Below are positions 5,331 through 32,924 of a stretch of DNA of 64,000 bases, one piece after another. The stretch is from Malacoraja senta (lineage: Eukaryota), in the NCBI GenBank assembly GCA_038087875.1, contig CM075988.1:2914001-2978000 (forward strand), written 5' to 3'. The position numbers and the translations under genes are program-made. The notes under the pieces are model-generated. The model did not search any database. It saw only the letters and a program-made list of their open reading frames with translations, and had not been told where the DNA came from. Numbering within the stretch: the stretch's first letter is position 1; the number at the start of each line of letters is the position of its first letter.

Positions 5331-5426
5331 TGGTGTCAGTCCTCTTACCCTTGCGCCTCCTGTTTATCGGTTGTTTATTTGATTTTACCCCAGTTTTCTG
5401 TTCCCCCCCCCTCTTATTTCCTCGCT

Positions 5427-6400
5427 ATGGCCACTTCTTGCCGCAAGCCCGATGTGCTAGTTTTCGATTCAGACATTGCCCATCGATGGGATGTCTTTAG
5501 ACGTGACGTCAACCACTATGTCACAATCGCTCATCCTGCCGCCACACCAGAAGTCAAAGCTTCTCTGCTTCTCAACCTGGCTGGTCCCGATGCCCTGGCT
5601 CGGTCAGACTTCTTCGTCTACGATGCGGGTGAATCTGCTCGGGACCCGGTATGTTTGTTGGCTAAGTTTACCGCTATTTGCGACATTCCCTCTAACTGCA
5701 TTTTAGAACGTTTTAAACTGTTCGGGCGGCGTCAGCACCCTGGTGAATCGGCCGAGAACTATGTCACTGCTCTGAGACACCTGGCCAGGTGGTGCCGCCT
5801 TGACATGCTGACCCCCGAGGAACTGACCAGGGACCTTCTGGTTTACGGTCTCCGCGATGAAAAGCTAAGGGCTGAACTTTTGCGCAGGCCCGACCTGCCT
5901 TTTAACGAGGCTATGCATGCCTGCCGTTTAGCCGAAGCTGTCACCTCGGCGGTGTCACCGGCTGATCATGACATTAACTTTGCCAGCGTTACCAGCCGTC
6001 GGCTGAACACGACCCCGCCATGACCCCAGCCACGACCCCCGGGGTCCGGCTTTGCTCCCGGGGGACGCGCCCAGCAGAGGTGCCCCAATTGTAACTTTGC
6101 TACTCATCTGTACAACGTATGCCCTGCTCTGGGTAAAACATGCAATTACTGCAAGAAACTGAACCACATTGCGGCTGCCTGCCGTTCCCGTGGGAAGCCT
6201 GTTGCTGCTCCAAGGCGTATGTTAAACAACTTGGTGCAAGCTGATAGCGAGCTCGGTTCCCAGTACCATTCCAACGAACTCCCTGTGTCTGACTCTGGGT
6301 CCTCACAGGGGGAAACCAGCATATTTTCTCTGTTGGATGCACCTGCTGTGATAACAGACCCTTCAGTTCGTGTAACTGTAAACAACTCGACCTGGGCAAG
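5427..6400 (+). pseudogene. gag: Gypsy gag with premature stop
   Basis: Gag-like ORF. After the in-frame TGA at 6021-6023 the same frame continues into two zinc knuckles (CPNC..H..C and CNYC..H..C). Confidence 0.85.
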
Positions 6401-6429
6401 CTGCCCTGCAACTACAAGATTGTAGTCGA

Positions 6430-9223: not shown

Positions 9224-9293
9224 CCATTTCTAGTGCATGAGACGTGGTCGCCCTGCCACTACCTTGTTTGCCTTTCGTTTCCAAGGGGAAGGA

Positions 9294-9497
9294 TGTAGAT
9301 GAGATATGCATGTGCCTTTAATATAGTTACCTCATCACTACTAACCACTCCCCATATCACAAGTATAATTACAACCTCCCCACCCACATATCGCTCTCTA
9401 GTTTCCGTGACAGACCACGTACAGCTAGTGCTCTCTGTAATGCTGCAGTATAAATAAAAGAAGTAAAGTTACAGTGCGTCGATAACACTTCTTTACA
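9294..9497 (+). repeat. 3' LTR
   Basis: Preceded by the PPT and followed by TSD GTTAC. Confidence 0.97.
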
Positions 9498-11900: not shown

Positions 11901-14347
11901 ACAGGGGATGTCAGGGTTGTCTTCTTACGGCAGAGGTACCGGATCAGGAAGGCCCCAGATCTAATAAAAGGAGGATCTATGTATGTTAATGGATGGTTTT
12001 TGTTTGTGAAATTAGTAATACTGTGATAATAATAATAATACCTCACACATCGCACTTTCTTTGAAATGGCATAATTTAAAAAGTGGTTAAATGCCTTTGT
12101 TTGCTTTATATGGCGTTTCATGACACATTTTGCAATTCAATGAAGTTCAATGCCTGTGTGTGTTTATTTATCTAATAAATCAAGGCTTTTATATGTGAGA
12201 TGCATTCCATTATTAGACTGGTTTCCATATGAGAGATCAATGCCATGATTAACAAACTGCTTTTTCCACTACACGAAAAGGTTACACTGAAGTTTAATAA
12301 TCAAGTTGTGGGTGAGGTTATTTGCGATAAATACAAAGACCCATGACGTTATAAGAATTAATTTGTTTATTAAGTGCAAACAAACAAATAACATATTGAC
12401 AAAACAAGAAACTAATTTTTAATGTGCAACACAAGTCAACAGAATATTGTTTATTTAGTGCAAGCAAACAAATGACGTAGTGAAAAACAACAGGGAATAA
12501 AACGTTAATGTGCAACACACAAGCAAACAGAATAGTGAATGTTGGAGAGAGCATCACTCTTTACGGCCCATGTACACTGGTTAATCCTCCATTTAATAGT
12601 CAGAGAGATCTGGGCCGGAGTTGCCGCTTGGGTCTGGACCCTCAAATTGCACAGGGAAATCTGTTGCTCCGAGCCTATCCATGCCGCGTGACGCATGATG
12701 TGGCGGTGAGCTGTCTACCCTGACATAGTGTGGGGGGGGGGGGGGCCTGCCATCCATGGGTATGCCATAGGCCGGGATTCCATCCTTGCCTGTGGGCAAA
12801 ACACATAAGTGTATCAATATGTATGGGAGCCAAACAAATCATATAAAACAAATCACAACCTTTCACAAGCTGTGTCAGAGACAATCTTGAGTCAGGCTGA
12901 AAACTCACAAAGGTTTCACAGTGTACCTGGGGAGAATATTGTGGTGGCATCATCCCCGTTTGTTGGTGTGGCATTATTGGCATGGGCCTCATCGGACTCT
13001 GCAACACCAAGGAAATCGTAGTGAATGATTCATAAACAGCATTAAAGTAAAACGTTTATAAATTCAATAAACTTTGATTAAAAGATTTTACTGGGAGAGG
13101 AAGTCTGTGCGCCCTTGCCAAGGCCAAGCCCTCTATGCAGAGGTGGTGCCATTGTGACTCAGGGATCTGTAACATCTCCTCCCTCAGTAGCGTTGAGTGC
13201 GCATAAACGATTCTTTCGTGCGACGTCCTTGGCTGCGACAATACATTTATAATATTTGCAGTGGTCTTAGCCTGTTGCATGATCTGCAACAAGAGAGTAC
13301 AATCCTGGTAAATATTTTTTGGGAGGCGATGGAGAAACGTGGACGTAGGGCGGAGTGAATGAGAAATTTGCTGAAGGTTCACCCGAAAGCACTTACATCT
13401 GTGAACATCTCCTGCTTAAGTGTTTCAACAGGCACATCGCAATCTGCCGCAGTTGTGCAGGCCCGCTTCCACATGGCGTGCTGCTGCTGTTTGACCGCAG
13501 TGCCGGACCCAGAGGGTCCATCTGAGGGTTCCTCTGGGGGTCCCTCTGGCGGATCAGGCTCACCCTCACTCGAGTCAGCGCACGATGATACCCCCACGGT
13601 AAGCTTGAAGAAAGTAAATGTGTATCATAAATGTGCAAGGCCATCAGGACATAGCAAGCAAAGTGACCACCAAGTTATCATTGTCAAATATCATTTTGAC
13701 TGACTTTCCAACAAATTTTAATTGTCGCATAATTTTCTTAACTATTCACCTTCCTGCCACTATCCTTCCTCTGCACTCGTACTATGTGGTTCCGCACGAA
13801 CCCCCATTTCTCCAATATCCACCGGTCTCTGTCAGTCATTGGCCTACTGGCGGAGCCAGACTTGTTAAGACTGCTCGACAGTTTCCCGAACCGTGTCCTC
13901 TGACTCTTGAGCCATTGACACAGTTGTTCATCTGTGAAAACATAGAATAAATGAAGATCAGTGTTGAGCAAATTATAATCTTAATTGGAACTGCAATTAC
14001 AACCACAGAAATATAGACAAACTACAAATTATGTACTTACAAGAGCAGTCAGGGAACTCCTTCGCCTTGTCTTCAAGAATGACGTTGCGGAGATCCTTGC
14101 TCCTGAATTCACGATGGCTCTTATCGTACAGTTCACGGTGGGCCTGATAACATTCCACCAGGTCTCCCTCTTGTTCCCTGGAAAAATTATAATGCCTTGT
14201 GCCCAACCTGTTCTTCGCCGGCGCAGATGGGGCATCAGTCTCCTGAGCCAAATCCGAGTCCCATGCAGGGACAGACGCTGGAGCAGGAGATGGGGCAGAT
14301 GGGGCAGCAGATGGGGCAGCAGATGGGGCAGCAGATGAGGCAGGAGA

Positions 14348-15620
14348 TGTAGAGCCATGCATGTTCCTTTAACATAATGACCTCACCACTACTAACCACT
14401 CCCCATTATCTTCAGTATAATTGTAACCTTCCCACCCCTAGCTCGCTCTCTAGCTCCGGTAACGGACCACGAACAGCTAGGGCAATATGTGTGTATACGA
14501 ATACAATGTATGCAATAAACTAAGAGTGATGACTATGTGTTTGACAAGTCTTTACATGGTGTCAGAAGTGGGATTCGAACCCACGCCTCCAGTTGGAGTT
14601 GCAGCATCATACGCTGCAAACGGGAAGAAGCCACGTGGATCGGTTTGTTCAAGATCGTGACCAGCGGCTGGTGGTCGGTTTCGATAGTGAAAGTGTTACC
14701 CAGAATGTAGTCCCTGAACTTCGAGCAGGCAAACACCACGGCAAGGAGCTCCTTCTCGATCTGAGCGTAGCGTTGCTCGGTAGGGGTCATAGTGCGGGAG
14801 GTGTAGGAGACAGGTAGTTGCAGGCGGTCGTAGATTTGCAGGCAGGCGGCACCGAGACCGAAACTTGAGGCATCGCAGGTAAGGACGATGGGGCGCTTTA
14901 ATTCGAAGAACTTGAGAGTGGGGGTGCGAACCAGCCGGGATTTTAAGTCATCGAAGGCTGCCTGATGCAGCGGGTACCAAACCCAGGCGGTGTCCTTCTT
15001 GGTCAGTTCCCTCAGGGGCGCACTCAGGTCGCTGAGGTCGGGAATGAATTTCCCCAGGTAGTTCACCATGCCCAAGAAGCGCTGCAGGCTGGGCACGTTG
15101 ACGGGAGCTGGCATCCCAGAGACCGCAGCTGTCTTCTGCTGGTCTAGTTTCAGACCCTCAGCCGTAAAAACATGGCCCACGTAGGTGACCTCCGGGACGC
15201 GGAAGCGGCACTTCTTGGGATTCAGTTTGAGGTTGATCTCCCGAGCCCGATCCAGGACTTGGCGGAGGTGGAGGTCGTGCTCAGCGACGTCCCTCCCGTA
15301 CACCAAGATGTCATCGACGATGATAGCACACGGCAGACCTGCAAATAGCTGCTCCATGGTGCGCTGGAAAACCTCGCTGGCAGAATTGATCCCGAAAGGC
15401 ATGCGGAGGAAACGGAACCTGCCGAAAGGTGTACCAAACGTGGTGACTACCACTACTAACCACTCCCCATTATCTTCAGTATAATTGTAACCTTCCCACC
15501 CCTAGCTCGCTCTCTAGCTCCGGTAACGGACCACGAACAGCTAGGGCAATATGTGTGTATACTAATACAATGTATGCAATAAACTAAGAGTGAAGACTAT
15601 GTGTTTGACAAGTCTTTACA
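14348..15620 (+). mobile_element. Rearranged Gypsy element: LTR, extended tRNA-Leu copy, inverted RT/RNase H, 5'-truncated LTR
   Basis: LTR 14348-14556 and partial LTR ~15449-15620. TSD GGAGA is confirmed by the empty site near 19571. The pol peptide is on the minus strand. Confidence 0.92.
14557..14598 (-). other. Reverse-transcribed 3' part of mature tRNA-Leu (extended PBS, includes CCA)
   Basis: Minus strand CTCCAACTGGAGGCGTGGGTTCGAATCCCACTTCTGACACCA shows variable arm, T-arm, acceptor stem and CCA. Confidence 0.88.
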
Positions 15621-16138
15621 GGAGATGGGGCAGGAACTGGGAATGGAACTGGTGAAGGTGCTGAGGCAGAAGATAGGGCAGGAGATGGGACAGGTACTGA
15701 AGCAGGGGCAGGAACAACAGCACGGACAGAAGCAGTGGCTGGACCCTCCAGTAGTTTAATGTTCTCTATAATTACTTTTTTTACTTTTTCCTGCATCGAT
15801 TTTTTCATCCTAGTTCTCCTCATGGTCCTGATATTATGTTTATGTCTCAAGATCTTGCGCGGTTTTAATGTGACCCGGTAAAAGGCGGGCCGACTGCGAA
15901 TGGACGTCGCGCAGCGTCGGGTGATGACGTCATCGCGCAACGCAACGCGCTAGGCCTACTCCGTCGAGACGGTGCGCGGCGTCGAGACACGGGATTTTTG
16001 AACAGTGTCAGTTTTACTGAGGTGTCGGGACCAACTCAATACGGCTCCGGCGATCTACGTGGGACCGACCCCACGCCGACCAGTGATCCCCGCACATTAA
16101 CACTATCCTACATCCACTAGGGACAATTTTTACATTTA

Positions 16139-16333
16139 AGGGCCTGTCCCACTTAGGCGACTCTTTAGGCGACCGCCAGGGACTAGTTTTAATGGAATTC
16201 ACCTACGACACCTGGCGACAACCTACGACAGCAAAAATTATCACCACTGTCGCCGAAAAAAGTTCAACATGTTGAAAATTTTGCGGCGGTTGCCTGTAGT
16301 CGCTCAAAAAATCGCCTAAGTGGGACAGGCCCT
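16139..16333. mobile_element. Harbinger-type MITE
   Basis: TIR AGGGCCTGTCCCACTTAGGCGA, TTA TSD, inserted in a SINE tail. Confidence 0.9.
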
Positions 16334-16675
16334 TTACCAAGACAATTAACCTACAAACACAGAATAAGAGTCACAGACGTTTTGATCCCAGAAGTTTGGG
16401 AAATGTTAATATTTTAGGGTACCTGAGTGTCCTTGTACACAGAGGACAGAAAGCCAACACACAGGGGCACCAGGAGATTACAGAAAGCAGGCGACAGTTA
16501 GCCGATACTGCAAGAGGATTTGATTACAGGGGTAAAGATGTCCATCAGCAGTTATTTGGGGCCTTGTTGACACTGCACCTGGAGCATTGGGTACAGTTTT
16601 GGTTTCCTTGTCTAAAATAGATTGTAATTGTTCCAGATGTGTGAATATTTACCCGGCAGTTGCTGAGATGCTGGG

Positions 16676-16975
16676 TTTAGTTTAGTTTAGTTTCGAGTTA
16701 CAGCGTGGAAACAGGCTCATTGGCCCACTGAGTCTGACTGACCAGCAATCCCTGTACACTCACACTAGGGACAATTTACAATCTTTATTGAAGCCAATTA
16801 ACCTGCAAACCTGCATGTCTTTGGAGTGTGGGAAGAAACCGCAGCACCCGGAGAAAACTCACGTGGTCACGGAGAGAATGTACAAACTCCATAGAGACAG
16901 CCCCTGTAGTCATGATCGAACCCGAGTCTCTAGCGCTGTAAGGCAGAAACTCTACCGCTGGGTCACCATGCCGCG
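16676..16975 (-). mobile_element. tRNA-derived SINE (V-SINE/HE1-like)
   Basis: A/B-box-like head (GGTTCGATC) and (CTAAA)n tail. Confidence 0.7.
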
Positions 16976-17146
16976 TCTTGAAATGTTCTTTTAAATCATA
17001 ATCTGCGTTGCAGTCATATTCATGCTGTTATAGGAGTCTGTTATATGAGAGAAGGTGTATAATTTAGAAAAATGGGAGGTCATCTCATTGATGTGTACAA
17101 AATACTTGGAGGGCTGGAGAGGTTCAATGGGGGAGGATGTTGGCCC

Positions 17147-17219
17147 GTGAACGCTAATGTCGCGCATGCGTGCTGGACGGGTTCTTCACGTAGTCACTCA
17201 CGTGACTCCGAAGTAAAAT
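17147..17219 (-). mobile_element. Isolated terminus of a DIRS element
   Basis: TTCTTCACGTAGTCACTCACGTGACTCCGAAGTAAAAT matches the DIRS end at 55183-55220. Confidence 0.8.
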
Positions 17220-17906
17220 GGATGGTTTTTGTTTGTGAAATTAGTAATACTGTGATAATAATGATAATACCTCACGCATCGCACTTTCTTTGAAATGGCA
17301 TAATTTTAAAAGCGGTTAAATGCCTTTGTCTAATTTATATGACGTTTCATGACACATTTTGCAATTCAATGAAGTTCAATGCCTGTGTGTTTTATTTATC
17401 TAATAAATCGAGGATTTTATATGTGAGATGCATTCCATTATTAGACTGGTTTCCATATGAGAGATCAATGCCATGATTAACAAACTGCTTTTTCCACTAC
17501 ACAAAAAGGTTACACTGAAGTTTAATAATCAAGTTGTGGGTGAGGTTATTTGCGATAAATACAAAGACCCATGACGTTATAAGAATTAATTTGTTTATTT
17601 AGTGCAAACAAACAAATAAATAACATATTGACAAAACAAGAAACTAATTTTTAATGTGCAACACAAGTCAACAGAATATTGTTTATTTAGTGCAAGCAAA
17701 CAAATGACGTAGTGAAAAACAACAGGGAATAAAACGTTAATGTGCAACACACAAGCAAACAGAATAGTGAATGTTGGAGAGAGCATCACTCTTTACGGCC
17801 CATGTACACTGGTTAATCCTCCATTTAATAGTCAGAGAGATCTGGGCCGGAGTTGCCGCTTGGGTCTGGACCCTCAAATTGCACAGGGAAATCTGTTGCT
17901 CCGAGC

Positions 17907-19890
17907 CTATTCATGCCGCGTGACGCATGATGTGGCGGTGAGCTGTCTACCCTGACATCGTGGGGGGGGGCCCTGCCATCCATGGGTATGCCATAGGCCG
18001 GGATTCCATCCTTGCCTGTGGGCAAAACACATAAGCGTATCAATATGTATGGGAGCCAAACAAATCATATAAAACAAATCACAACCTTTCACAAGCTGTG
18101 TGTCAGAGACAATCTTGAGTCAGGCTGAAAACTCACAAAGGTTTCACAGTGTACCTGGGGAGAATATTGTGGTGGCATCATCCCCGTTTGTTGGTGTGGC
18201 ATTATTGGCATGGGCCTCATCGGACTCTGCAACACCAAGGAAATCGTAGTGAATGATTCATAAACAGCATTAAAGTAAAACGTTTATAAATTCAATAAAC
18301 TTTGATTAAAAGATTTTACTGGGAGTGGAAGTCTGTGCGCCCTTGCCAAGGCCAAGCCCTCTATGCAGAGGTGGTGCCATTGTGACTCAGGGATCTGTAA
18401 CATCTCCTCCCTCAGTAGCGTTGAGTACGCATAAACGATTCTTTCGTGCGATGTCCTTGGCTGCGACAATACATTTATAATATTTGCAGTGGTCTTAGCC
18501 TGTTGCATGATCTGCAACAAGAGAGTACAATCCTGGTAAATATTTTTTGGGAGGCGATGGAGAAACGTGGACGTAGGGCGGTGCGAATGAGAAATTTGCT
18601 GAAGGTTCACCCGAAAGCACTTACATCTGTGAACATCTCCTGCTGAAGTGTTTCAACAGGCACATCGCAATCTGCCGCAGTTGTGCAGGCCCGCTTCCAC
18701 ATGGCGTGCTGCTGCTGTTTGACCGCAGTGCCGGACCCCGAGGGTCCATCTGAGGGTTCCTCTGGGGGTCCCTCTGGCGGATCAGGCTCGCCCTCACTCG
18801 AGTCAGCGCACGATGATACCCCCACGGTAAGCTTGAAGAAAGTAAATGTGTATCATAAATGTGCAAGGCCATCAGGACATAGCAAGCAAAGTGACCACCA
18901 AGTTATCATTGTCAAATATCATTTTGACTGACTTTCCAACAAATTTTAATTGTCACATAATTTTCTTAACTATTCACCTTCCTGCCACTATCCTTCCTCT
19001 GCACTCGTACTATGTGGTTCCGCACGAACCCCCATTTCTCCAATATCCACCGGTCTCTGTCAGTCATTGGCCTACTGGCGGAGCCAGACTTGCCAAGACT
19101 GCTCGACAGTTTCCCGAACCGTGTCCTCTGACTCTTGAGCCATTGACACAGTTGTTCATCTGTGAAAACATAGAATAAATGAAGATCAGTGTTGAGCAAA
19201 TTATAATCTTAATTGGAACTGCAATTACAACCACAGAAATATAGACAAACTACAAATTATGTACTTACAAGAGCAGTCAGGGAACTCCTTCGCCTTGTCT
19301 TCAAGAATGACGTTGCGGAGATCCTTGCTCCTGAAATCACGATGGCTCTTATCGTACAGTTCACGCTGGGCCTGATAACATTCCACCAGGTCTCCCTCTT
19401 GTTCCCTGGAAAAATTATAAGGCCTTGTGCCCAACCTGTTCTTCGCCGGCGCAGATGGGGCATCAGTCTCCTGAGCCAAATCCGAGTCCCATGCAGGGAC
19501 AGACGCTGGAGCAGGAGATGGGGCAGATGGGGCAGCAGAAGGGGCAGCAGATGGGGCAGCAGATGAGGCAGGAGATGGGGCAGGAACTGGGAATGGAACT
19601 GGTGAAGGTGCTGAGGCAGAAGATAGGGCAGGAGATGGGACAGGTACTGAAGCAGGGGCAGGAACAACAGCACGGACAGAAGCAGTGGCTGGACCCTCCA
19701 GTAGTTTAATGTTCTCTATAATTACTTTTTTTACTTTTTCCTGCATCGATTTTTTCATCCTAGTTCTCCTCATGGTCCTGATATTATGTTTATGTCTCAA
19801 GATCTCGCGCGGTTTTAATGTGACCCGGTAAAAGGCGGGCCGACTGCGAATGGACGTCGCGCGGCGTCGGGTGATGATGTCATCGCGCAA
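17907..19890 (-). CDS. Harbinger ORF2, spliced Myb/SANT/MADF-like DNA-binding protein, copy 2 (start and later exons tentative)
   Basis: FSREQEGDLVECYQ..ELYDKSH..F | YEQLCQWLKSQRTRFGKL joined in frame by a GT-AG intron (19268-19160). Further GT-AG bounded exons lie downstream. Confidence 0.65.
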
Positions 19891-20678
19891 CGCAACGCGC
19901 TAGGCCTACTCCGTCGAGACGGTGCGCGGCGTCGAGACACGGGATTTTTGAACAGTGTCAGTTTTACTGAGCACCGCGCGGTGTCGGGAACAACTCAATA
20001 CGGCTCCGGCGATCTACGTGGGACCGACCCCGCGACCACATGCGCGGTCCCCGCGCGGCCCCCGCTTCCTGTTAGGTCGCGCTTGCCGCATAGAATCGCC
20101 CGCCCGTGGGACAGGCCCTTAACTCTGTTCCTCTTTTCACAGATGCTGCCTGCTCTGCTGAAGGTTTCCTGCATGTTGTGTGTTCCTGTATATAGATGAG
20201 GATATGGATACTACAGCCATGATCTCCGCTGCTCCTTCCTGTCTGATGCTGATCATTTCAGGGGTTCTACCATGGAAATGTGAGAGCAATAGACAAAATA
20301 GACTTTTAGAACCCTCATACCTGTTTTGTCAAATGTTTGGTCTCTATCTTAACTCCATACATTTGATTCATAGAGTCATACAACACGATCTTGGGCCCAG
20401 CTCGTCCATGCCAACCAAGATGCACCATCCAAGCTAGTCCCATTTCGCCATGTTCAGCCCATATCCCTCTAAACCTTCCCTATCCAATTATCATAGTCAT
20501 ACAGAGTCGTTTGCTTTGGTCTCAATATCTTTGTCGAAAATAATTTAATCTTTGCGTTGAAATTTAAGAAAGGAATTGCAATTTCCCTCCAGCTTTTGTG
20601 TGAAGCAATGTTCCTGACAGCACTGGAACAGTGCAAAATGTTATGGTTATGTCCTGGCCTCTCTGATCTTATGTTCAC

Positions 20679-21080
20679 TTGGAATTTAGAAGGATGAGAG
20701 GAGATCTTGTAGAAACGTATACAATTCTTAAGGGATTGGGCAGGCTAGATGCAGGAAAAATGTTCCCGATGTTGGGGGAGTCCAGAACCAGGGGTTACAG
20801 TTTAAGAATAAGGGGTAGGCTATTAAGGACTGAGATGAGGAAAAACTATTTCACCCAATGAGTTGTGAATCTGTGGAATTCTCTGCCACAGAAGGCAGTG
20901 GAGGCCAATTCACTGGATGAATACAAGAGAGAGTTAGATATAACTATTAGGTCTAGTGGAATCAAGGAGAAAGGAGGATTGAGGTACTGATTTTGGATGA
21001 TCAGCCTTGAACATATTGAATGGCATTGCTGGCTCGAAGGGACGAATGGCCTACTCCTGCATCTATTTTCTATGTTTCTA
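20679..21080 (+). mobile_element. CR1 3' fragment
   Basis: EFRRMRGDLVETY..SRTRGYSL, with a TTTCTATG tail. Confidence 0.85.
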
Positions 21081-21171
21081 GCTCCCTCACAATACATGCC
21101 TATGAAGTGTCTCTATGGTCTGGAGCTCCCGCCCAATGCCACAATACAGAGACCACAGTTGGGGGAGGAGA

Positions 21172-21270
21172 TTCTGAAGAAGGGTCCCCACCTGAAACAT
21201 CACCTATCCATGTTCTCCAGAGATGCTGCCTGTCCCGCTGAGATACTCCAGCATCTTGTGTCTATCTTGG
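21172..21270 (+). repeat. Hammerhead-headed short repeat (degenerate copy)
   Basis: CTGAAGAAGGGTCCCCACCTGAAACATC followed by the shared body. Confidence 0.55.
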
Positions 21271-21641
21271 GAGAGGAGAGGTTTGATATAAATGTTCCTC
21301 AGATTTCACGTTGGTGAATGCTGCATTTCCTACCACCTGTCCAGGTGTTTGCTGGTGACAGGAAACTGAGAGGGAATGTGATGAGGATGAGGATTCAAAG
21401 AGATGTCACAGTCTGTGGACATGTTGAGTGAGTTGGCAATGATTTGGTAGATGGTTTACAACGTGGAAGAGGTGAGGTTATCAACATAGGTGGAGAAGCA
21501 GGAGTGCTGAATATATATATATATTTTATAGTTTAGAGATACAGCGCGGAAACAGGCCCTACGGCCCACCAGGTCCACGCCGACCAGTGACCCCGCACAT
21601 TAACACTATCCTACACCCACTAGGGACAATTTTTACATTTA

Positions 21642-21816
21642 AGGGCCTGTCCCACTTAGGCGACTCTTTAGGCGACCGCCAGGGACTAGTTTTAATGGAA
21701 TTCACCTACGACAGCAATAATTATCGCCACTGTCGCCGAAAAATGTTCAACATGTTGAAAATTTTGCGGCAGTTGCCTGTAGTCGCTCAAAAAATCGCCT
21801 AAGTGGGACAGGCCCA
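21642..21816. mobile_element. Harbinger-type MITE (duplicate of 16139-16333)
   Basis: Same TIRs, TTA TSD and flanks. Confidence 0.9.
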
Positions 21817-22156
21817 TTACCAAGCCAATTAACCTACAAACACAGAATAAGAGTCACAGAAGTTTTGATCCCAGAAGTTTGGGAAATGTTAATATTTTAG
21901 GGTACCTGAGTGTCCTTGTACACAGAGGACAGAAAGCCAACACACAGGGGCACCAGGAGATTACAGAAAGCAGGCGACAGTTAGCCGATACTGCAAAAGG
22001 ATTTGATTACAGGGGTAAAGATGTCCATCAGCAGTTATTTGGGGCCTTGTTGACACTGCACCTGGAGCATTGGGTGCAGTTTTGGTTTCCTTGTCTAAAA
22101 TAGATTGTAATTGTTCCAGATGTGTGAATATTCACCCGGCAGTTGCTGAGATGCTG

Positions 22157-22458
22157 GGTTTAGTTTAGTTTAGTTTAGATTTACAGTGTGGAAACAGGCT
22201 CATTGGCCCACTGAGTCTGACTGACCAGCAATCCCTGTACACTCACACTAGGGACAATTTACAATCTTTATTGAAGCCAATTCACCTACAAACCTGCATG
22301 TCTTTGGAGTGTGGGAAGAAACCGCAGCACCCGGAGAAAACTCACGTGGTCACGGAGAGAATGTACAAACTCCATAGAGACAGCCCCTGTAGTCATGATC
22401 GAACCCGGGTCTCTAGCACTGTAAGGCAGAAACTCTACCGCTGGGTCACCATGCCGCC
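22157..22458 (-). mobile_element. tRNA-derived SINE (duplicate of 16676-16975)
   Basis: Sequence matches the first copy. Confidence 0.7.
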
Positions 22459-22834
22459 TCTTGAAATGTTCTTTTAAATCATAACCTGCTTTGCAGTCAT
22501 ATTCATGCTGTTATAGGAGTCTGTTATATGAGAGAAGGTGTATAGTTTAGAAAAATGGGAGGTCATCTCATTGATGTGTACAAAATACTTGGAGGGCTGG
22601 AGAGGTTCAATGGGGGAGGATGTTGGCCCTGGTAAAGGAGTCAAGAACTAGGGAGCAGAAACAAGGGGCAGGCTGGGAAACACTGAGATGAGGAGAAAAT
22701 TCCTTAACCAGATGGTGGTGACATTTTGGAATTCGCTATCCCGGAATGTACAAGGATACTCAGGTACCCTAAAATATCAACATTTCCCAGTCGTCTGTCA
22801 TTAAAGAATATTCAGCCTTTCATGATGAAAGGAG

Positions 22835-23270
22835 AAGATTTATGAGGATGCTGCAAGGACTCGAGGGCATGAGCTGTAGGGAGAGCTTGAGCAGGCTAGG
22901 ATTCTATTCTTTGGAGCGCAGGAGAGTGAGGGGTGATCTTACAGAGGTTTACAAAATCATGAGAGGAATAGAACAGGAAGACAGACAGAGTCTCTTGCCC
23001 AGAATAGGGTAATCGAGAACCAGAGGACATAGGTTTAGGGTGGGGGGGAAAGATTTAATAGGAACCTGAGAGATAACTTCATCACACAAATGGTGGCAGG
23101 AGTATGGAATGAGCTGCCAGAGGTGGTGGTGATTGGGACAGGTACTAGCTCAACGTTTATGAAATATTTAAAAAGGTACATGGATAGGACAGGTGGAACT
23201 AGCATAGATAGGGCCTGTAGGTCGGTGTGGACGTGGATCAAAGGGCCTATTTCCACGCTGTATGACTGTT
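22835..23270 (+). mobile_element. Old CR1 3' fragment
   Basis: Degenerate LGFYSLERRR..RGDL and WNELP coding. Confidence 0.7.
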
Positions 23271-23579
23271 TTTCCACCTATGATGCTAACCACATGTCTT
23301 CTGCATTTTGCACTATCTGTCATTCATTCTGAACCAAAATCAATAGGATTCCACATACATAGAGGATTAGAACAATATGTGAATGGTGCAGGAAAATGGA
23401 ACCCTGGTGGAAGACTAACCACGATCATTGACTGGCGGGGTAGGCTCGAGGGGCTGAATGGCCCACCCAGCTTCTAATGTTGTGACACCAGCTGCGCAAA
23501 AGACCTGCCTCATTCTATTTGGAAATTCCACTATAAAGCTGAACGAGCTTGTGGATAAACGTTTGGTAAATGAAGCCTG

Positions 23580-23863
23580 TTTTGTTTGGAGATACAGAGT
23601 AGAAACAGGCCCTTCGGCCCACCAAGTCTGCGCTGACCAGTGATCCCGTCACACTTACACTATCCTGCATGCACTTGGGACAATTTGCCATTATACCATG
23701 CCAATTAACCCACAATGTCCTTGGAGGATGGGAGGCAACCGGAGCACCCGGAGAAAACCCATTCAGGTCAAGGGGACAATGTGCAAACTCCGTACAGACA
23801 GCACCCGTAGGATCGAACCCGGGTCTCTGGTGCTGTAAGGCAACAAATATACTGCTATGCCAC
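23580..23863 (-). mobile_element. tRNA-derived SINE
   Basis: GGTTCGATCC B-box-like motif and shared core. Confidence 0.6.
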
Positions 23864-24149
23864 CTTGCTGCTTCCTGTTTTAAATCATAATCTGATTTGT
23901 AGTTATATTCATGCTGTTATAGTGCTTATTTATCATGTGCTCTGGATATGAACCAGAACAATTACATTTTTATTTGCTGCAGTTCTACAGGCACTCTAGG
24001 TGCCATGACAACAACAATAGATGATAAATGATCAATTATTCTTAAATAAACTAGACCATGACACTGCAAAAACCAGACTACGTAGAGCAGCCACAGTAGT
24101 GCAGTGGTTCGTTAGGGTTGCGGTGATTGAGGTTGGGTTGTGGTTAGGG

Positions 24150-24930
24150 TCATGGAAGGAGGTTCAAGAACCCAAAAGTTGATGGGAAGAAGCTGGTCTT
24201 GAACCTGGAGGTCACTGTCCTCAGGCACCTGTACCTTCTTGGTGGTAGTGAGAGGAGAACAAGGCCAGGGTGGTGTCAGTCTTTGATGATAATAGCTGTC
24301 TTTTTGAGGCAGCACTTTCTGTATGGTGCAGAGGTCAGTACCTGTGATGGACTTGGCAATGGCCATCACATTCTGCAGGCTTCTTTGTTCTTGAGTATTC
24401 GAATTTCCACAAACTTCTGAGAAGGTTGGCAAGCTTTATTTGTGACTACACCAATGTGCGTGGTACAGGTCAGATCTTCAGAGATGTGTATGAACTGGAA
24501 CCTAACGCTGTTAACTCTCTCCACCGCCATCCAACTAATGAAGTCAGGTTCATGAATCCCAGGCATTCCCCTTCTGAAGATAACAATCTGCTTCTTGTCT
24601 TGCTAACAGTGAGAGCAAGATTATTGTTCTGGCACCATTCAATTTATTGATTATTGATCGCCCTTCTGCACTCTAACACATTGTTAGTGGTTATTCCTCC
24701 AACTATGATGGTATCATTGGAGAATTTAAAGATGGGGTAGGAGCTGTGTATGGCTACACGGTCATGTGTGTAGAGAGAGTAGAGCAGGGGACAGAGCACG
24801 CAGCCTTGAGGTGCCCCTGTGCCGATGGTCAGAGAGGAGGAGATGTTGCTGCCAATTCGTGTTGATTGTCTGACGATGAAGAAATCAAGGGTCCAGTTGC
24901 TTAGGGACGAGCAGACCCAGTTTTTTGCAT
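24150..24930 (-). mobile_element. Decayed Rex1/Babar-like RT 3' fragment
   Basis: VERVNSVRF..IHISEDLT, plus GAPQGCVLCP-like coding near 24790-24820. Confidence 0.6.
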
Positions 24931-24936
24931 TTGATG

Positions 24937-25067
24937 TGTAGGAAGGAACTGCAGATGCTGGTTTAAACCGAAGATAGATACTAAAAGCTGGAGTAACTCA
25001 GCGGGACAGGCAGCATCTCTGGAGAGAAGGAATGGGTGACGTTTCGGGTCCAGACCCTTCTTCAGAC
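24937..25067 (-). repeat. Hammerhead-headed short repeat
   Basis: Minus strand GTCTGAAGAAGGGTCTGGACCCGAAACGTCACC. Confidence 0.6.
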
Positions 25068-25402
25068 TTCATTGAAGTAGGGCCTCACCCATTCTTTGCA
25101 TTTAATGATGAGTTTGCATCCAAGATTTTTACTGTACCTCAGTACATGCAACAATAAACTAAACTAAAGTACATACCAGAGCGAGGTGTTTTGTAAAAAT
25201 TCCACATTGCTTTAATGCAAACGACATAAGTGCTAATGATCTGGGCCTGTGAAGAACCATGTAACATGCACCATTCAGAGCAGTTGAAGTGGGGCTGAGA
25301 GCCCACGCATGCTATCAACACAGTCCTGATGACCCCAGCAAACCTGATGCTGGCTCACTGTAGGCGGTTTAATTGTGTGGAATTTAAATACAGTGGTCAC
25401 CG

Positions 25403-26860
25403 CAATAGACAATAGGTGCAGGAGTAGGCCATTCGGTCCTTCGAGCCAACACCGCTATTCAATATGATCATGGCTGATCATCCACAATCAGTACCCGTTC
25501 TATCTATAAAAGCCCCATCTAGCTCTGTCTTGAAAGTATCCAAAGAACCGGCCTCCACCGCCCTCTGAGGCAGAGAATTCCAAAGACTCACAACTCTCTG
25601 TGAGAAAAAATGTTTCCTCGTCTCTATTCGAAATGGCTTACCCCTTATTCTTAAACTGTGGCCCCTGGTTCTGGACTCCCCCACCATAGGGAACATGTTT
25701 CCTGCCTCGAGCGTGTCAAAACCCTTAATAATGTTATATGTTTCAATAACATTCCCTCTCATCCTTCTAAACTCCAGAGTATACAAGCCCAGCCTCTCAG
25801 CATATGACAATCCCGCTATCCCTGGAATTAACCTTGTAAACCTACGCTGCACTCCCTCAATAGCAAGAATGTCCTTCGTCAAATTAGGGGACCAAAACTG
25901 CACACAATACTCCAGGTGTGGTCTCACTAGGGCCCTATACAACTGCAGAAGGACCTCTTTGCTCCTATACTCCTCTTGTTATAAAGGCCAACATGCCATT
26001 CGCTTTCTTCACTGCCTGCTGTACATGCATGCTTACTTTCATTGACTGATGAACAAGGACCCCCCAGGTCCCGTTGTACTTCCCCTTTTCCCTTGACACC
26101 ATTTAGATAATAATTAGATATTATTTAGATAATAATGTGGATAATCTCACATTTATCCACATTAAACTGCATCTGCCATGCATCTGCCCACTCAACCAAC
26201 CTTATACTCGCTAGAATTTAGGAGATTGAGAGGGGATCTTATAGAAACGTACAAGATTCTTATGGGGATGGACAGGCTAGATGCAGGAAGATTGTTCCCG
26301 ATGTTGGGGAAGTCCAGGACAAGGGGTCACAGCTTAAGGATAAGGGGGAAATCCTTTAAGACCGAGATGAGGAAAAACTTTTTCACACAGAGAGTGGTGA
26401 ATCTCTGGAACTCTCTGCCACAGAGGGTAGTTGAGGCCAGTTCATTGGCTATATTTAAGAGGGAATTAGATGTGGCCCTTGTGGCTAAAGGGATCAGGGG
26501 GTATGGAGAGAAGGCAGGTACGGGATACTGAGTTGGATGATCAGCCATGATCGTATTGAATGGCGGTGCAGGCTCGAAGGGCCGAATGGCCTACTCCTGC
26601 ACCTAATTTCTATGTATCTATGTATCTATGTCCAAGTCACCCTGCATTCTCATAGCATCCTCCTCACAGTTCACACTGCCACCCAGCTTTGTGTCATCTG
26701 CAAATTTGCTAATGTTACTTTGAATCCATCTAAATCATTGATGTAAATTGTAAATTGCTGCGGTCCCAGCATCGAGCCTTGCGGTACCCCCTAGTCACTG
26801 CTTGCCATTATGAAAGGGACCCGTTAATCCCTGCACTTTGTTTCCTGTCTGCCAACTGCA
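25403..26860 (-). mobile_element. CR1 fragment, interrupted by a younger CR1 3' end
   Basis: YRALVRPHLEYCVQFWSP..WNSLP. The RT portion resumes after 26630. Confidence 0.85.
26200..26630 (+). mobile_element. Young CR1 3' fragment
   Basis: LYSLEFRRLRGDLIETYK..GY*, with a (TATCTATG)n tail. Confidence 0.92.
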
Positions 26861-28095
26861 TTTCAGTGATCACCAGCCATTCCTATCGCAAGGGTAGGTC
26901 CCCAGTTGTGAGGGCAGGATTAGGCTGGAGTTACCACTCTGGGAGCAGCCTGTTGAGGCTCACCCTCAGGCAGCTGTACCACCCGCTCTGTATCCCTGCT
27001 TGACCATCACAGTTCACACAGCCCCTGCTCCAGTCTCAGGGTGCAAGGATCCTCTGCTCCATTGTCGCCAGAGACCTTTGTGTCCCAACAGCTCCTGGCT
27101 GAAGGAGGAGTAAAGTAATTGAAGCAGTCTTCTTGTTTTTAAAAGTAAAACTTGGTAAGACATGGGATAAACAGAACGTCCTGGATTCAGTCAACAGGTC
27201 CGGCTCGTCAGTGAGGGGAGAACGAGAACATGCTTCATTCCAACCCTGGGCCTAAACCTTTTGGCTGGTTTACCAGAACGCTGCCTGGATTAGAGGATAT
27301 CGGCTACAGGGAGGCTCTGAAGACCTGCTTGAAGAAAGGGTCCAACACAAAACATCACCTATTCCTTTTCTCAGAGATGCTGCCTGACCCGCTGAGTTAC
27401 TCCAGCACTTTGTGTCTATCTTCGGTGTAAACCAGTATCTGCAGTTCCTTCCTAAACAGGGAGAGGATGGACAGACTTAGTTGAACATAGGTTGGATTGT
27501 TTTCTCTGGAACAATGGATATTGAGGGGAGACACCAGAAGTGTATACAATTATGTGAGGCATAGATCGCATAGACAGAAACTTTTTATGGAAATGTCAAA
27601 TACTGGAGGACATAACTTTAAGGTGAGAGAGGTAAAGTTTAAAGAATATGCACAGGGGAAGTTTTGTGGGGAAAGGGGGTGGGGGAGAACAAACGAGGAG
27701 CCAGTGTGGGGGAACCGTCATGGGGGGGGGACATAGAATATCACTGTTACTTGTCACATGTGACAATAAAGTTTCACTAATTTATACAGAGCTTGGTGGG
27801 TCCCTGCAACATACTGCCAGGGGTGGTGATGGAGACAGATACGATGGTGGCATCTAAGAGGCTTTTAAGTAGGCACATGGATATGCATGGAATGGAGGGA
27901 TATGGATCACGTGCAGGCAGAGGAGATTGGAGTAACTTTGCGTCATGTTCGGCACAGACATTATGGACTGAAGAGCCCATTCCTGTGTTGTACTGTTCTT
28001 GTTATTTGTTCTTGTTCCTCAGGTTCTCAAGTTTTGAGCTTCAGGTTCCTTGGCCTTAATATTACCAATGATCTGTCATGAACTAACCACTAGAC

Positions 28096-28848
28096 CAGGG
28101 GTTGGGAACCTTTTCATGTTGGAATGCCGCATTAAGTTAGCTGTAATCTATTAAGGCCGCATCCAAGAAACTTCAATTAGATATACTTCAAAATGTACAT
28201 TATTTTGTAAAAATCTAAGTACTATGTACTAACTTCAAGAAAATGAAAAAAAAATCTTAATTCTAAAGTTAACTAACCTTTTAATGAGTTTATTGTGACT
28301 GCTTTTTGTGGGAATGTATTTGAATATTTGGTTGCAACATGGAAGTACGCAGTTTCAGCTGATCTTCTAGATGGGTATCCATCATTTGTGACCTTAAGGG
28401 CATCTTGATTTGGGTTAGGTAGGAGAACGTTGATTCGCAGCAATGTGGGTGAAAAGCAAGAAAGCATTTTTCGTGCATGTTGCCGAAGACGTGGTATTCT
28501 ACTGCATTTTTCCATATTTCAATCGGATATTTCTTAACGTCAAATAAGAACTTTAAAATTTCATCTTCTGAGAGCTCAATCAATTCCATCTGTAGTTCTT
28601 TAGGAGCCTTGGAGACATCAACCAGGTGAGGTTGAAATGCTAAATTGAATGCTAAAAAAATGCTAATTTTGTTTAATCATATTTTACTCTTTGGTATTTT
28701 AAATACGTTCATTTTAAGATTAAAATAAAAATAATAAAAGACGAACAAAAATATATTGATAAAAATAAAAGGATTTGTTCTACAAAATTTGGATTCATTC
28801 AAAAGGCCGCATTTAATGGCCCAGAAGGCCGCAGGTTCCCCACCCCTG
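28096..28848 (-). mobile_element. hAT (Charlie-like) internal-deletion derivative retaining the transposase C-terminus
   Basis: TIRs CAGGGGTTGGGAACC / GGTTCCCCACCCCTG, 8-bp TSD CACTAGAC/CACTGGAC, and the dimerisation-domain peptide CESTFS..IK..LRS. Confidence 0.88.
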
Positions 28849-29895
28849 CACTGGACACTTCCCCTCTGTTATCAGGCTTCTGAACGGTTCTCCCCTAAGC
28901 AAGGGCACTGTCCGATTCAGCTCTACCCCATTGCGGACATTGGACTTTGTCTCTGGAACACGTGCACTACAATGCTGAGAACTATTATCCGCACCCTGTA
29001 TCTTCCCCCTTCGTTTTACCTATTGTACTGAGGCTTGATGGTACTGTATTATCTAACCTAATTGAATAGCATGGAAAACAATGCATTTTCACTGTAACTT
29101 GGTACGTGTGACAATAATAAACCTAAACCTAATCTGAACCTTTGTCCTTTATTCTATGGTGAGAAATCCAGCAGACTTTACTTCTGCTAAGCAATGGGAT
29201 TCTGTCCCTAACTTCCAGATTGCTACTCTGCCTGTGATTGCAGGTGAAGTTTGGGTGCTCGACACATTTGGCATGACCTGGATCACCTCCCAGTCTCTGC
29301 CCGGGTCAGTGAGCTGACCACTTCCCAAGGGGAAGACAGAGGAACGTCAATCTGAATCTGACTCTCCAAAATCAGCCGGGATCGTGTCGGCCTCCCGCCC
29401 GGCCCCATCGTTGATCTAATGCTGCCCGTCTCAGTGCGGGTGGAGAGGAGTGAGATCTGTATCCCCTCCCTTTCAGTTTCAGTTTAGTTTATTGTCACGT
29501 GTACCGAGGTACAGTGAAAAGCTTTTGTTGCGTGCTAACCAGTCAGCAGAAAGACAATACATGATTATAATTGAGCCATTCACAGTGAACAGATACACGA
29601 TAAGGGAAAAAGTTTAGTGCAAGATGAAGCCAGTAAAGTCCGATCAAAGATAGTCACCAATGAAGTAGATAGTAGTTCAGCACTGCTCCCTAGTTGTGGT
29701 AGGATGATTCAGTTGCCTGATAACAGCTGGGAAGAAACTGTCCCTGAATCTGAAGGTGTGCGTTTTCACACTTCTACACCTTTTGCCCGATAAAAGTGGC
29801 CAAGGTGCGACTTGTCCTTGATTATGCTGCTGGCCTTGCCGAGGCAGCGTGAGGCATAAATGGAGTCAATGGAAGCTGACGTTGGTTCGTGATAT

Positions 29896-32800
29896 TGTTG
29901 ATTTAGAGTCCTCATAATAATAATGTCCTCACACCATGTCAGGTTATACACAGTTTATTAGAAATAAGCAACCACAACTTCTCACTTGAGAGTTCACTTT
30001 TAGACTAACGGAGGGCAGTAGACCGCAACGCTAACAAGCTAGAGGGGGCGTAACTACAAATTCATGACTCATAGCATGAGCCACTAATCTACATCCCCCC
30101 TCTTAAAGAATCAATAACGCTGTATACCCACAACTAAGCAAAGCAAATATCGCAACCGATGACCAATGTATATAAAGTCAAACATAGTCCGGATACTTCA
30201 CAACCGGCCAGCAAACACGACCGGCATGTGTACGATAGAGGCTCCATTCCCCATTCTTTTTCTCCTGCATCACTTATCTCCTTTAATGGTTCAGCACTAC
30301 ACCCTATCGGCCAACTAAAGTTACGTTGCCGTCTCAACGCGCGTGACCACATCCTGGATTTCTACGTGGTACGCAAGAAGGTACCATCCATACTGGGTTC
30401 CGATGCATGCCATGACATGGGTTTGATTTCCTTCAGCCCTTCAGTCTGTCCATTGACTATAGGCTGTGATTTTACACATCACATTTTAACACAATACAAG
30501 GATTTGTTTAACGACGAGCTGGGCAGGTTGCCTGTGAGATACACGATTACTATTGACCTTGAGGCAATCCCAGTTGTTCGTGCAGCTCACAGGATTCCCC
30601 ATGCCATGCGGGATCACGTACAAAGTGAACTTAACAGAATGGTGGCTCTTGGTGTGATTACTCCCGTAACTGAACATTCAGACTGGGTCTCCTCAATGGT
30701 TGTTACTACTAAGAAGAATAAAGATGAGATACGGATTTGTATTAACCCCAAGGACTTAAATACTGCAATTAAGAGACCACGTTATCCAATGCGTTCAGTG
30801 GACGAGATTGCGGCGCAGATGGCCGATGCAACTGTATTCACAGTGCTAGATGCCAAGAGTTCATTCTGGCAGATTCCACTGGAACATAAATCCTCCAAGC
30901 TGACAACTTTCAGTACACCGTTCGGACGATATACATTTTTGAGAATGCCCTTTGGTATAAGTCCTGCCAGTGAAGTGTTTCAACAATCCATGGAGCAATT
31001 GTTTTCCGGATACCCTTGCTCCATCGTAGTTGACGATATCCTCATTGCTGGGAAAACGATCGAGGAACACGACGCCAATCTGACAAAAGTATTGAAGCGT
31101 GCTGAGGCCATCCATCTAAAACTCAATCCCCAAAAATGCAGATTCAGAGTGAATGAGATAAAATACCTAGGCCATATATTTACCAAGGATGGCCTGAAAA
31201 CCGATCCAGTGAAAACCAGTGCCATTAATGAAATTCCAGCACCCACGGATGTGCCCAGCTTGCAGAGGTTCCTTGGCATTGCGAACTATTTGAGCAAATT
31301 CATTCCAGATTTCAGTGAAACGTCAGCCCCATTACACCATCTCACACACAAAGACACTGCTTGGACCTGGCATGAACAACAACAGACAGCATTTGACACT
31401 CTGAAACGGCAGATGTCGCCCACCCTTACTCTAGCATACTTTGATCATAGACTGCCTATTACACTTACATGTGACGCCTCACAACATGGCCTGGGTGTGG
31501 CATGCCTTCAAAATGATGGTCATGGCCATAAGCCTGTCGCCTATGCCTCGCGCACCTTGTCTGACACAGAACAACGATACGCCCAAGTCGAAAAGGAGTT
31601 GCTAGCGGTTGTTTTCGCCTGCAAAAAGTTCAACGATTTCATCTTTGGTCGCACTGTTACAATTGAAACCGACCACCAACCTCTTATCAGCATTTTCAGT
31701 AAACCTATTCATAACTCTCCTGCGCGCCTTCAACGGATGTTACTGCAACTTCAAAAATATGACATAGTCCTCACCTACAAACCTGGCAGACACTCTTTCA
31801 CGTGCACCTCGGAAGACCTGCGAGAATCTGCCCTCACAGGATGATGACTTTTTCGTGATGTCCGTATCCTTCATCCCTTCATCATGGATGGAGGACCTGG
31901 TTGCCCACACTGCCGCCGACAAGATCCTACAGTCGCTAACTTCTATCATTAAGCGGGGCTGGCCAGACAAGCACTACAAGCCACTTCCATTGCCAGTCCG
32001 ACCTTTCTTCCCTGTTCGGGACGAATTAGTGCTACAAGACAGAATTGTTTTAAAAGGACACAAGGCCGTGGTTCCTGTTTCGCTGCGTCACCGGTATTTT
32101 GACACTGTCCATGCAGGACACCCATGTGCTGAAGCCACTGTTTCACAGGCAAAAAGCATGTTTTACTGGCATGGCATAGCTGAATACATCAATAAAAATG
32201 TGGCAGCTTGTGCTGTGTGCGATAGCCTGGCACCTCATCAACAAAAGCAACCACTTCTGCCACATCCTGTACCTGCGCTCCCATGGCACGGCAAGCAGTA
32301 CCTGGTGCTCGTGGATTCATATTCAGGGTGGTTCGACATTGATTTTCTCAGCAGCCCCACTTCCAGCGGCGTGATTTCAAAATTATCTCATCATTTTTCA
32401 ATCCATGGATCTCCAGGCAAGCTGTTGACTGACAATGGCAGCCAGTTCACCAGCCAACAATTCAGAGAGTTTGCCAGACGCCGGAATTTTCACCACATCA
32501 CCAGCAGCCCTGAGTATCCACAGGCTAGCTGAACGGGCTGTCAGAAGTGCAAAACAAATCATGGAGCACTCTCACAGGGCCAAATCTGATGTATTCCTGG
32601 ATTTGCTCAACTTACGTAACATTTCCCGTGACCCTGCCTTGGGTTCACCTGCTCAACGATTATTGTCAAGGCAGACCCGTACCCCATTGCCCGTCGCAGA
32701 ACAAACTTTAATCCCACTTCTGACACCATGTTGATTTAGAATCCTCATAATAATAATGTCTTCACACCATGTCAGGTTATACACAGTTTATTAGGAATAA

Positions 32801-32924
32801 GCAACTACAAGTTCTCACTTGAGAGTTCACTTTTAGACTAACGGAGTGCAGTAGGCCGCGACGCTAACGACCTAGTGGGCGTAACTACAAATGCATAACT
32901 CATAGCATGAGCCACTAATCTACA
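29896..32924 (-). mobile_element. Gypsy element with minus-strand LTRs, PBS and PPT but plus-strand (inverted) pol; gag absent
   Basis: LTRs 29896-30093 and 32729-32924. PBS TGGTGTCAGAAGTGGGAT on minus (32711-32728), PPT on minus (30094-30102). GTGAT on both flanks, with a 2-nt offset on the left. Confidence 0.92.
30245..32715 (+). pseudogene. pol: Gypsy pol segment (protease C-terminus, RT, RNase H, integrase core), frameshifted
   Basis: SILG, IRICINPKDLN, RMPFG, VVDD, CDAS, EKELLA and TDNG motifs. Confidence 0.92.

What the first reader, a model, noticed from the sequence alone, without database searches (positions are those of the whole stretch)
14348..32924. Recurrent 'PBS-junction inversion' architecture in two independent Gypsy elements
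Seen: two elements with different LTR sequences (14348-15620 and 29896-32924) are both built as LTR, tRNA-Leu PBS, then immediately ANTISENSE pol with no gag, then a switch back to sense 3' sequence or LTR. Both keep TG..CA ends and 5-bp flanking duplications. Both PBS/pol junctions sit on microhomology (TTGGAG; AATCCCA). Known: plus-strand strong-stop DNA ends in a copy of the primer tRNA. Inference: that 3' end mis-primed on sense pol RNA or DNA instead of the minus-strand PBS, and the product was still integrated. Such copies would make LTR-driven antisense pol RNA, a possible self-generated source of silencing small RNA.
Basis: partly seen in the sequence, partly recalled or inferred. Interest (0 to 1): 0.82.

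Follow-up and report, generated by a model that had tools for sequence, protein, structure and literature searches.

The report
Primer-tail mispriming inverts Gypsy retrotransposons
Many Gypsy-type jumping genes in this genome carry their inner part backwards, starting exactly at a copy of the host tRNA primer, likely because a normally dead-end DNA intermediate restarted copying on the element's own RNA and was inserted anyway; whether such copies help silence the element is untested.

Summary
Real, recurrent and not confined to this window. Both elements read LTR, tRNA-Leu copy, antisense pol, sense 3' end, with 7-nt microhomology at each PBS junction. Element 2's target duplication is imperfect. 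Element 1's tRNA copy is 42 nt long and its 3' LTR lacks 37 nt. Normal copies have a short or imperfect PBS. Of 100 consecutive copies with a perfect 18-nt tRNA copy, 40 turn antisense at once and 38 jump to a downstream sense site (1269 such copies genome-wide; about 500 inversions by extrapolation). The tails come from mature tRNA: 131 of 384 read-through tails mismatch at tRNA position 58, against 3 of 256 at position 59. One hotspot junction recurs in 47 copies. In that family all 37 scored inversions have different second junctions, and the junction is scattered over the LTR tree. The sense part restarts downstream of the inversion start in 35 of 37, the geometry of L1 twin priming. Best reading: tRNA-tailed plus strong-stop DNA mis-primes on sense RNA inside the particle. 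The sense-deletion version is known in HIV; I found no report of the inversion class in 10 searches. Antisense or small-RNA output is untested.

The parts
14343..14347 (+). Element 1 left TSD GGAGA
   Evidence: single copy at the empty paralogous site 19571-19575
14348..14556 (+). Element 1 5' LTR, 209 bp, TG..CA
14557..14598 (+). 42-nt copy of the tRNA-Leu 3' end, read through position 58 into the variable arm; normal copies of this family have an 8-nt PBS
14592..14598 (+). Junction 1 microhomology GTTGGAG (tRNA tail and antisense pol)
14592..15446 (-). Inverted RT/RNase H fragment, 96-98% identical to normal family copies
15449..15620 (+). Element 1 3' LTR lacking its first 37 nt; no PPT; 98.8% identical to the 5' LTR
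15621..15625 (+). Element 1 right TSD GGAGA
32729..32924 (-). Element 2 5' LTR
32710..32728 (-). 19-nt tRNA-Leu copy; its last 7 nt (TGGGATT) are the junction microhomology; normal copies of this family pair about 10 nt
30265..32716 (+). PR-RT-RH-IN (broken frames), antisense to the LTRs
30094..30265 (-). Sense 3' UTR with the PPT at 30108-30094
29896..30093 (-). Element 2 3' LTR, 92.4% identical to the 5' LTR; flanks GATAT and GTGAT (imperfect TSD)
5127..9497 (+). In-window control: normally oriented Gypsy with a split PBS (TGGTGTCAG 5331-5339, then CGCCTCC 5354-5360), gag-like and pol frames in sense, TSD GTTAC

Best explanation
These are integrated Gypsy copies whose internal part is inverted exactly at a copy of the primer tRNA, and they likely arise during reverse transcription, when the tRNA-tailed plus strong-stop DNA primes a second, backward cDNA on the element's sense RNA and is then joined to the unfinished minus strand. 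Steps: (1) Shown: normal copies pair only about 8-15 nt, often imperfectly, with tRNA-Leu, followed by a second box matching the T-arm or variable arm. (2) Shown by footprint: rearranged copies carry 18 to about 53 nt copied from mature, modified tRNA. (3) Inferred: this first strong-stop DNA has an unpaired 3' tail and is normally a dead end, as in Ty3. (4) Shown statistically: the tail joins at microhomologies; an antisense acceptor gives a deletion and a sense acceptor gives an inversion. (5) Inferred from the order of breakpoints: the sense acceptor is RNA that the minus strand has not yet passed. (6) Inferred: the two nascent ends are joined with little homology. (7) Shown: the ends keep TG..CA and mostly carry 5-bp TSDs, so integrase inserted the product.
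For: Anchoring: 40 of 100 consecutive 18-nt-PBS copies turn antisense right after the tail, 38 are sense deletions, 11 continue natively and 11 are unclassified; two pairs are segmental duplicates. 29 of 30 short-PBS copies continue into a normal 5' UTR and gag ATG; 0 of 13 fully read ones are inverted. tRNA origin: position 58 mismatched in 131 against 253 matched, position 59 mismatched in 3. One tail crosses the tRNA-Leu(CAA) intron site without the intron, with mismatches at 37 and 34; another mismatches at 37 of Leu(CAG). Microhomology: 36 of 42 inversions scored, mean 3.6 nt, 18 of 36 at >=4 nt (9 of 27 without the main hotspot); null 0.32 nt and 0.5%. The hotspot is the only ATCCCA in the normal family copy used as ruler. 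Independence: 47 copies share that junction; 37 of 37 scored family inversions have distinct second junctions; on the LTR tree the 29 hotspot copies need 13 changes, at least 6 forced, shuffled mean 15.2. Geometry: the sense restart lies downstream of the inversion start in 35 of 37 (p 6e-6 against a uniform null), two of them only 7-8 nt away. Pre-integration: exact TSD in 20 of 30 inverted copies with a 3' LTR, against 6 of 10 controls; two head-to-head copies ending in two U3 ends have perfect TSDs.
Against: Microhomology is 0-2 nt in 16 of 36 scored inversions (references were only 78-100% identical). 2 of 37 break the downstream rule, and several copies have three or more jumps. The downstream rule could be inflated if long inverted repeats are lost from genomes or assemblies. 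Second junctions often show gaps of 8-29 nt instead of overlaps. One antisense run reaches U3 position 33 through a native PBS (L080), which a DNA template would also explain. Frequency differs widely by family: 0 of 30 in element 1's family. Independence of element 2 from the one copy sharing its junction is not shown (AU p 0.17). No read-level confirmation.
Confidence: 0.8

Rival explanations
1. Same timing, but the mis-primed template is plus-strand DNA or the second packaged RNA, not the RNA being copied.
For: Head-to-head copies and truncated 3' LTRs with intact TSDs (element 1, L064, L089, L119) need more than one nascent strand. L080's antisense run enters U3. Intermolecular transfer giving asymmetric LTRs is proposed for HIV (PMC9278108, passages).
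Against: It does not predict the 35 of 37 downstream restarts or the restarts 7-8 nt and 17 nt from the priming site.
Confidence: 0.12
2. One or a few inverted master copies amplified non-autonomously and later lost different internal pieces.
For: 47 copies share one first junction. Deletions across the second junction would also give downstream restarts.
Against: All 37 second junctions differ. The junction is scattered over LTR subfamilies among other classes, and 0% of bootstrap trees give a single origin. For the second hotspot the restart can lie upstream of the first hotspot (L097). Many other breakpoints and families are involved.
Confidence: 0.04
3. Inversions happened after integration (repair or recombination), or are autointegration products.
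For: A few internal inversions lie away from the PBS (L046, L067, L086). Inversion circles from autointegration occur in plant particles (PMC7197481, passages).
Against: It cannot supply tRNA sequence absent from the native element, modification-type mismatches, or two U3 ends with a TSD. Autointegration consumes the LTR ends and puts breakpoints throughout the element.
Confidence: 0.02
4. Assembly artefact.
For: Repetitive DNA; junctions were not checked in reads.
Against: Exact TSD with an empty paralogous site, 1-8% LTR divergence, copy-specific junctions, and a position-specific mismatch spectrum.
Confidence: 0.02

Closest known systems
Aberrant (delayed) second-strand transfer in HIV-1 proviruses (PMC12657518; passages seen)
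   Same: PBS followed by 7-54 nt of read-through primer tRNA, then a jump; m1A58 not acting as the stop; 5 of 44 had a change at position 58.
   Different: There the jump goes to a downstream minus-strand site (a deletion), and 'inversion' and 'inverted' occur 0 times in the main text. Here half the classified jumps go to the opposite strand, in germline-fixed copies numbering in the hundreds.
Ty1/Ty3 dead-end first plus strong-stop DNA and bipartite PBS (PMC5371799; section 2.2 and passages)
   Same: Short or split PBS; the first strong-stop DNA copies more tRNA than the PBS can pair; tRNA sequence is not inherited by normal progeny (here 20 of 30 normal 5' ends of one family read TGGCG where the tRNA gives TGGTG).
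   Different: In yeast the tailed product is described as accumulating unused; here it is found integrated as deletions, inversions, PBS conversions and head-to-head elements.
L1 twin priming (as summarised in PMC4245944; passages; original paper not read)
   Same: Two primers on one RNA, a 5' inverted segment, loss of sequence at the inversion point, microhomology at the second priming site.
   Different: The second primer is the element's own strong-stop DNA in a particle, not a nicked target strand; insertion is by integrase with a 5-bp TSD.
Autointegration inversion circles (PMC7197481; passages)
   Same: An inverted internal segment in LTR-retrotransposon cDNA.
   Different: Circular and non-integrating, with breakpoints spread along the element and no tRNA tail.

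Membership tests
Ty3/Gypsy LTR retrotransposon | pol order RT-RNase H-integrase | tested here: met
   Pfam on element 2 and the control element
Ty3/Gypsy LTR retrotransposon | TG..CA LTRs, tRNA PBS, PPT, 4-6 bp TSD | tested here: met
   element 1 lacks the PPT, element 2's TSD is imperfect
Ty3/Gypsy LTR retrotransposon | Clade placement by an RT tree with named references | not tested
   no reference set on hand
Aberrant plus-strand transfer products | Breakpoint at or just after the primer-tRNA copy | tested here: met
   78 of 100
Aberrant plus-strand transfer products | Tail copied from mature modified tRNA | tested here: met
   position 58: 131 of 384; position 59: 3 of 256; one spliced tail
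Aberrant plus-strand transfer products | Jump goes to a downstream minus-strand site (sense deletion), as described in HIV | tested here: not met
   not met for the two window elements and 40 of 100; met for 38 of 100 sister copies
Twin-priming inversion | Non-inverted part starts downstream of the second priming site | tested here: met
   35 of 37; element 2 also
Twin-priming inversion | Both primers are target-DNA ends (TPRT) | tested here: not met
   the second primer is LTR plus tRNA copy; 5-bp TSDs
Twin-priming inversion | Both cDNAs made on one RNA molecule | tested here: inconclusive
   breakpoint order fits; element 1, L080 and head-to-head copies need extra strands
Non-autonomous amplified derivative | Many insertions sharing the same internal structure | tested here: not met
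   37 of 37 distinct second junctions
Antisense small-RNA source locus | LTR-driven antisense transcript and small RNAs | not testable with these tools
   needs stranded and small-RNA data

The most novel reading that the evidence does not exclude
LTR retrotransposons with a split PBS have their own twin-priming pathway. The 'dead-end' tRNA-tailed strong-stop DNA is a major productive primer, so in some families inverted insertions match or outnumber normal ones (22 inverted against 5 normally oriented with the same LTR end in 162 Mb; different ascertainment motifs). Each burst of transposition would thus seed hundreds of LTR-driven antisense pol cassettes that silence the family, and the tails preserve a datable germline record of tRNA modifications.
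Probability: 0.2. Interest if true: 0.9.

Novelty: new variant of a known kind. Interest (0 to 1): 0.72.

Why it matters
It turns a rare retroviral error into a countable genomic class, with a rule that predicts where the inversion starts from the family's sequence. It gives fossil evidence, in an animal germline, for the Ty3 model in which the first strong-stop DNA is not the one normally inherited. It warns that a perfect 18-nt PBS, which LTR annotation tools favour (own knowledge), here selects for defective copies. The tails record RT misreading at modified tRNA bases. If transcribed, inverted copies would offer an insertion-site-independent source of antisense RNA, which makes the origin of silencing against new LTR families directly testable.

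Tried and rejected
Family frequency (22 of 30 inverted) was first taken as unbiased. It was rejected after one search showed that normal copies of that family mostly read TGGCG and were missed by the pattern; LTR-ascertained samples are the unbiased ones. The idea that element 1's 3' LTR begins at the transcription start was not supported: truncated sense 3' LTRs start at 10, 21, 38, 162 and 185. The tree test of element 2 against the copy sharing its junction was inconclusive (p 0.17). One search used a pattern that still admitted LTR copies; two tRNA gene types were recovered from its list. Sequencing runs: no RNA holder listed, and no read evidence was obtained. Earlier findings: none. Paper searches gave no report of PBS-anchored inversions, judged from listings and abstract starts plus passages of five papers. 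Three classic papers were not held: Pulsinelli and Temin 1991, and Lauermann and Boeke 1994 and 1997. The first is recalled as describing strand-transfer deletions with tRNA sequence; older retroviral literature may mention inversions. No supplements were read; those of PMC12657518 could hold inverted cases.
Full report
Observation. Both elements are as described, with small corrections. Element 1 (14348-15620, +) is a 209-bp LTR, a 42-nt copy of the tRNA-Leu 3' end, 855 bp of antisense RT/RNase H, and a 3' LTR missing its first 37 nt. It is flanked by GGAGA, and the duplicated target at 19571-19575 is empty. Element 2 (32924-29896, minus strand) is an LTR, a 19-nt tRNA copy, 2.45 kb of PR-RT-RH-IN running against the LTRs, then sense 3' UTR, PPT and LTR; its flanks GATAT and GTGAT match only imperfectly. 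Compared with normally oriented copies of each family, both PBS junctions share 7 nt between the tRNA tail and antisense pol. LTR identities of 98.8% and 92.4% indicate events of different age.

What a normal copy looks like. A third Gypsy in the window (5127-9497) has only 9 nt of PBS, a spacer, and a second box matching the tRNA variable-arm region. This is the rule in the genome. Of the first 30 of 342 copies with a 9-nt PBS, 29 run on into a normal 5' UTR and gag ATG. In element 1's family, 25 of the first 30 of 161 copies have an 8-nt PBS, 3 are tailed sense deletions, 2 are tailed but continue natively, and none is inverted. Among the 30 best LTR hits of that family, 16 bear a PBS, and only the window copy is inverted. 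In element 2's family, the 30 best LTR hits include 10 PBS-bearing ends: 3 inverted (one is the query), 4 sense deletions, 1 tailed and unassigned, and 2 normal. One of those inversions (L231) follows only 7 nt of PBS.

The genome-wide class. An exact LTR end plus 18-nt tRNA copy occurs 1269 times. I fetched the first 100 on contig C1 and mapped them on a natural long frame as a ruler. 40 turn antisense immediately, 38 jump to a downstream sense position, 11 continue natively and 11 could not be classified; two pairs are segmental duplicates. Extrapolated, about 500 inverted copies exist (roughly 380-630 from sampling error; one contig sampled). None of 13 fully read short-PBS copies is inverted. 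A few inversions away from the PBS exist (L046, L067, L086). Exact 5-bp TSDs were found in 20 of 30 inverted copies with a detectable 3' LTR, 19 of 26 sense deletions and 6 of 10 short-PBS controls.

The tail is copied from mature tRNA. 253 copies read through with the tRNA-matching base at position 58, and 131 with another base there, mostly A, then C, then G; only 3 differ at the neighbouring position 59. That m1A58 is the usual plus-strand stop is stated in PMC12657518. Tails cluster at 18 nt, about 33-39 nt and about 45-53 nt (greedy estimates). One tail (L166) crosses the intron position of the tRNA-Leu(CAA) gene without the intron and differs at positions 37 and 34; another (L014) differs at 37 of tRNA-Leu(CAG). 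The labels m1G37 and modified C34 are recalled, and these are single cases. Conversely, 20 of 30 normal 5' ends of the hotspot family read TGGCG where the tRNA gives TGGTG, so normal progeny mostly do not inherit the tRNA sequence. This is what is reported for Ty1 and Ty3, where the first, tailed strong-stop DNA is displaced and accumulates as a dead end (PMC5371799 section 2.2).

Where the tail lands. Microhomology was scored for 36 of 42 inversions: mean 3.6 nt, 18 at 4 nt or more (9 of 27 without the main hotspot), 16 at 2 nt or fewer. It was scored for 23 of 38 deletions: mean 2.5 nt. Random sites give 0.32 nt. One junction in RT recurs in 47 copies. It is the only ATCCCA in the normal copy used as ruler, which has no sense TGGGAT outside the PBS; this plausibly explains the bias of that family towards inversion.

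Independent events. In the hotspot family, 41 inverted copies were mapped (two distant rows dropped) and 37 had a sense restart; all 37 second junctions differ. On a tree of 48 LTRs, the 29 hotspot copies need 13 changes (at least 6 forced by starred branches; shuffled mean 15.2; no bootstrap tree with one origin). The LTR alignment is short. For element 2 and the one copy sharing its junction, the test was inconclusive.

Geometry and timing. The sense restart lies downstream of the inversion start in 35 of 37 (uniform null 0.62, p 6e-6), and in three copies only 7, 8 and 17 nt away. That is expected if the tail anneals to RNA not yet degraded and the minus strand can go no further than that hybrid, as in L1 twin priming (PMC4245944). 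Loss of long inverted repeats could inflate the ratio. Two copies end in two complete U3 ends with perfect TSDs (L364, L040), which only a pre-integration event explains. Element 1 and other copies with a truncated 3' LTR but an intact TSD need a second, incomplete minus strand, as proposed for asymmetric HIV LTRs (PMC9278108).

Frequency caveat. The pattern gave 22 inverted, 6 deleted and 2 normal among 30, but it misses TGGCG copies. A 5' UTR motif finds 203 mostly normal copies across related subfamilies. Five with the same LTR end lie in the same 162 Mb as the 22 inverted (19 non-redundant) copies. Both counts are lower bounds from different motifs, so I claim only that inverted copies are at least comparable in number in that subfamily.

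Comparison and novelty. tRNA read-through with sense deletion is documented in 44 HIV-1 proviruses, with no mention of inversion in the main text. Autointegration inversion circles differ in anatomy. Ten searches returned no description of PBS-anchored inversions in integrated LTR elements; older virology papers were not available. I rate this a new variant of aberrant plus-strand transfer that works like twin priming without belonging to it.

Not shown. Transcription, small RNAs, read-level junctions, and generality beyond this genome.

Verdict. Real; a reverse-transcription origin is very likely; same-RNA priming is likely; the silencing role is speculative. Interest 0.72.

Noticed in passing
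L364 (G000:C1:282824300-282828900) and L040: Head-to-head elements: two LTRs in opposite orientation, both outer ends U3, with perfect 5-bp TSDs; L040's second end carries its own read-through tRNA tail.
   Followed up: partly
L130, L204, L213, L351, L358, L392: PBS conversion: the tRNA tail re-joins the native 5' UTR at or near the second PBS box, leaving an otherwise normally ordered element with a continuous 18-33 nt PBS.
   Followed up: partly
window 15440-15456: At element 1's second junction the pol site and the U3 site carry the same 9-mer in some family copies, so both nascent strands end in the same sequence; another family copy (L080) also breaks at U3 position 33. Unexplained.
   Followed up: partly
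window 10554-11964 and 11988-20034: Harbinger-like DDE_Tnp_4 transposase frame plus a weakly MADF-like frame (below the Pfam cut-off); the unit is duplicated at about 98% (11988-14349 and 17217-19577), and element 1 sits in one copy only.
   Followed up: no
window 56220-64000: 25-bp tandem satellite with higher-order repeats and an inversion of orientation near 63400.
   Followed up: no
window 42642-46442 (-): 1266-aa open frame with endonuclease, RT and zf-RVT domains (non-LTR element ORF2); further RT fragments at 344-1786 and 41133-42263.
   Followed up: no
L171, L172, L175: tRNA-Leu 3' fragments of 31 nt or more, some with CCA, that are not tRNA-Leu genes and do not adjoin an LTR end in the usual way; possibly other captured primer tails.
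   Followed up: no
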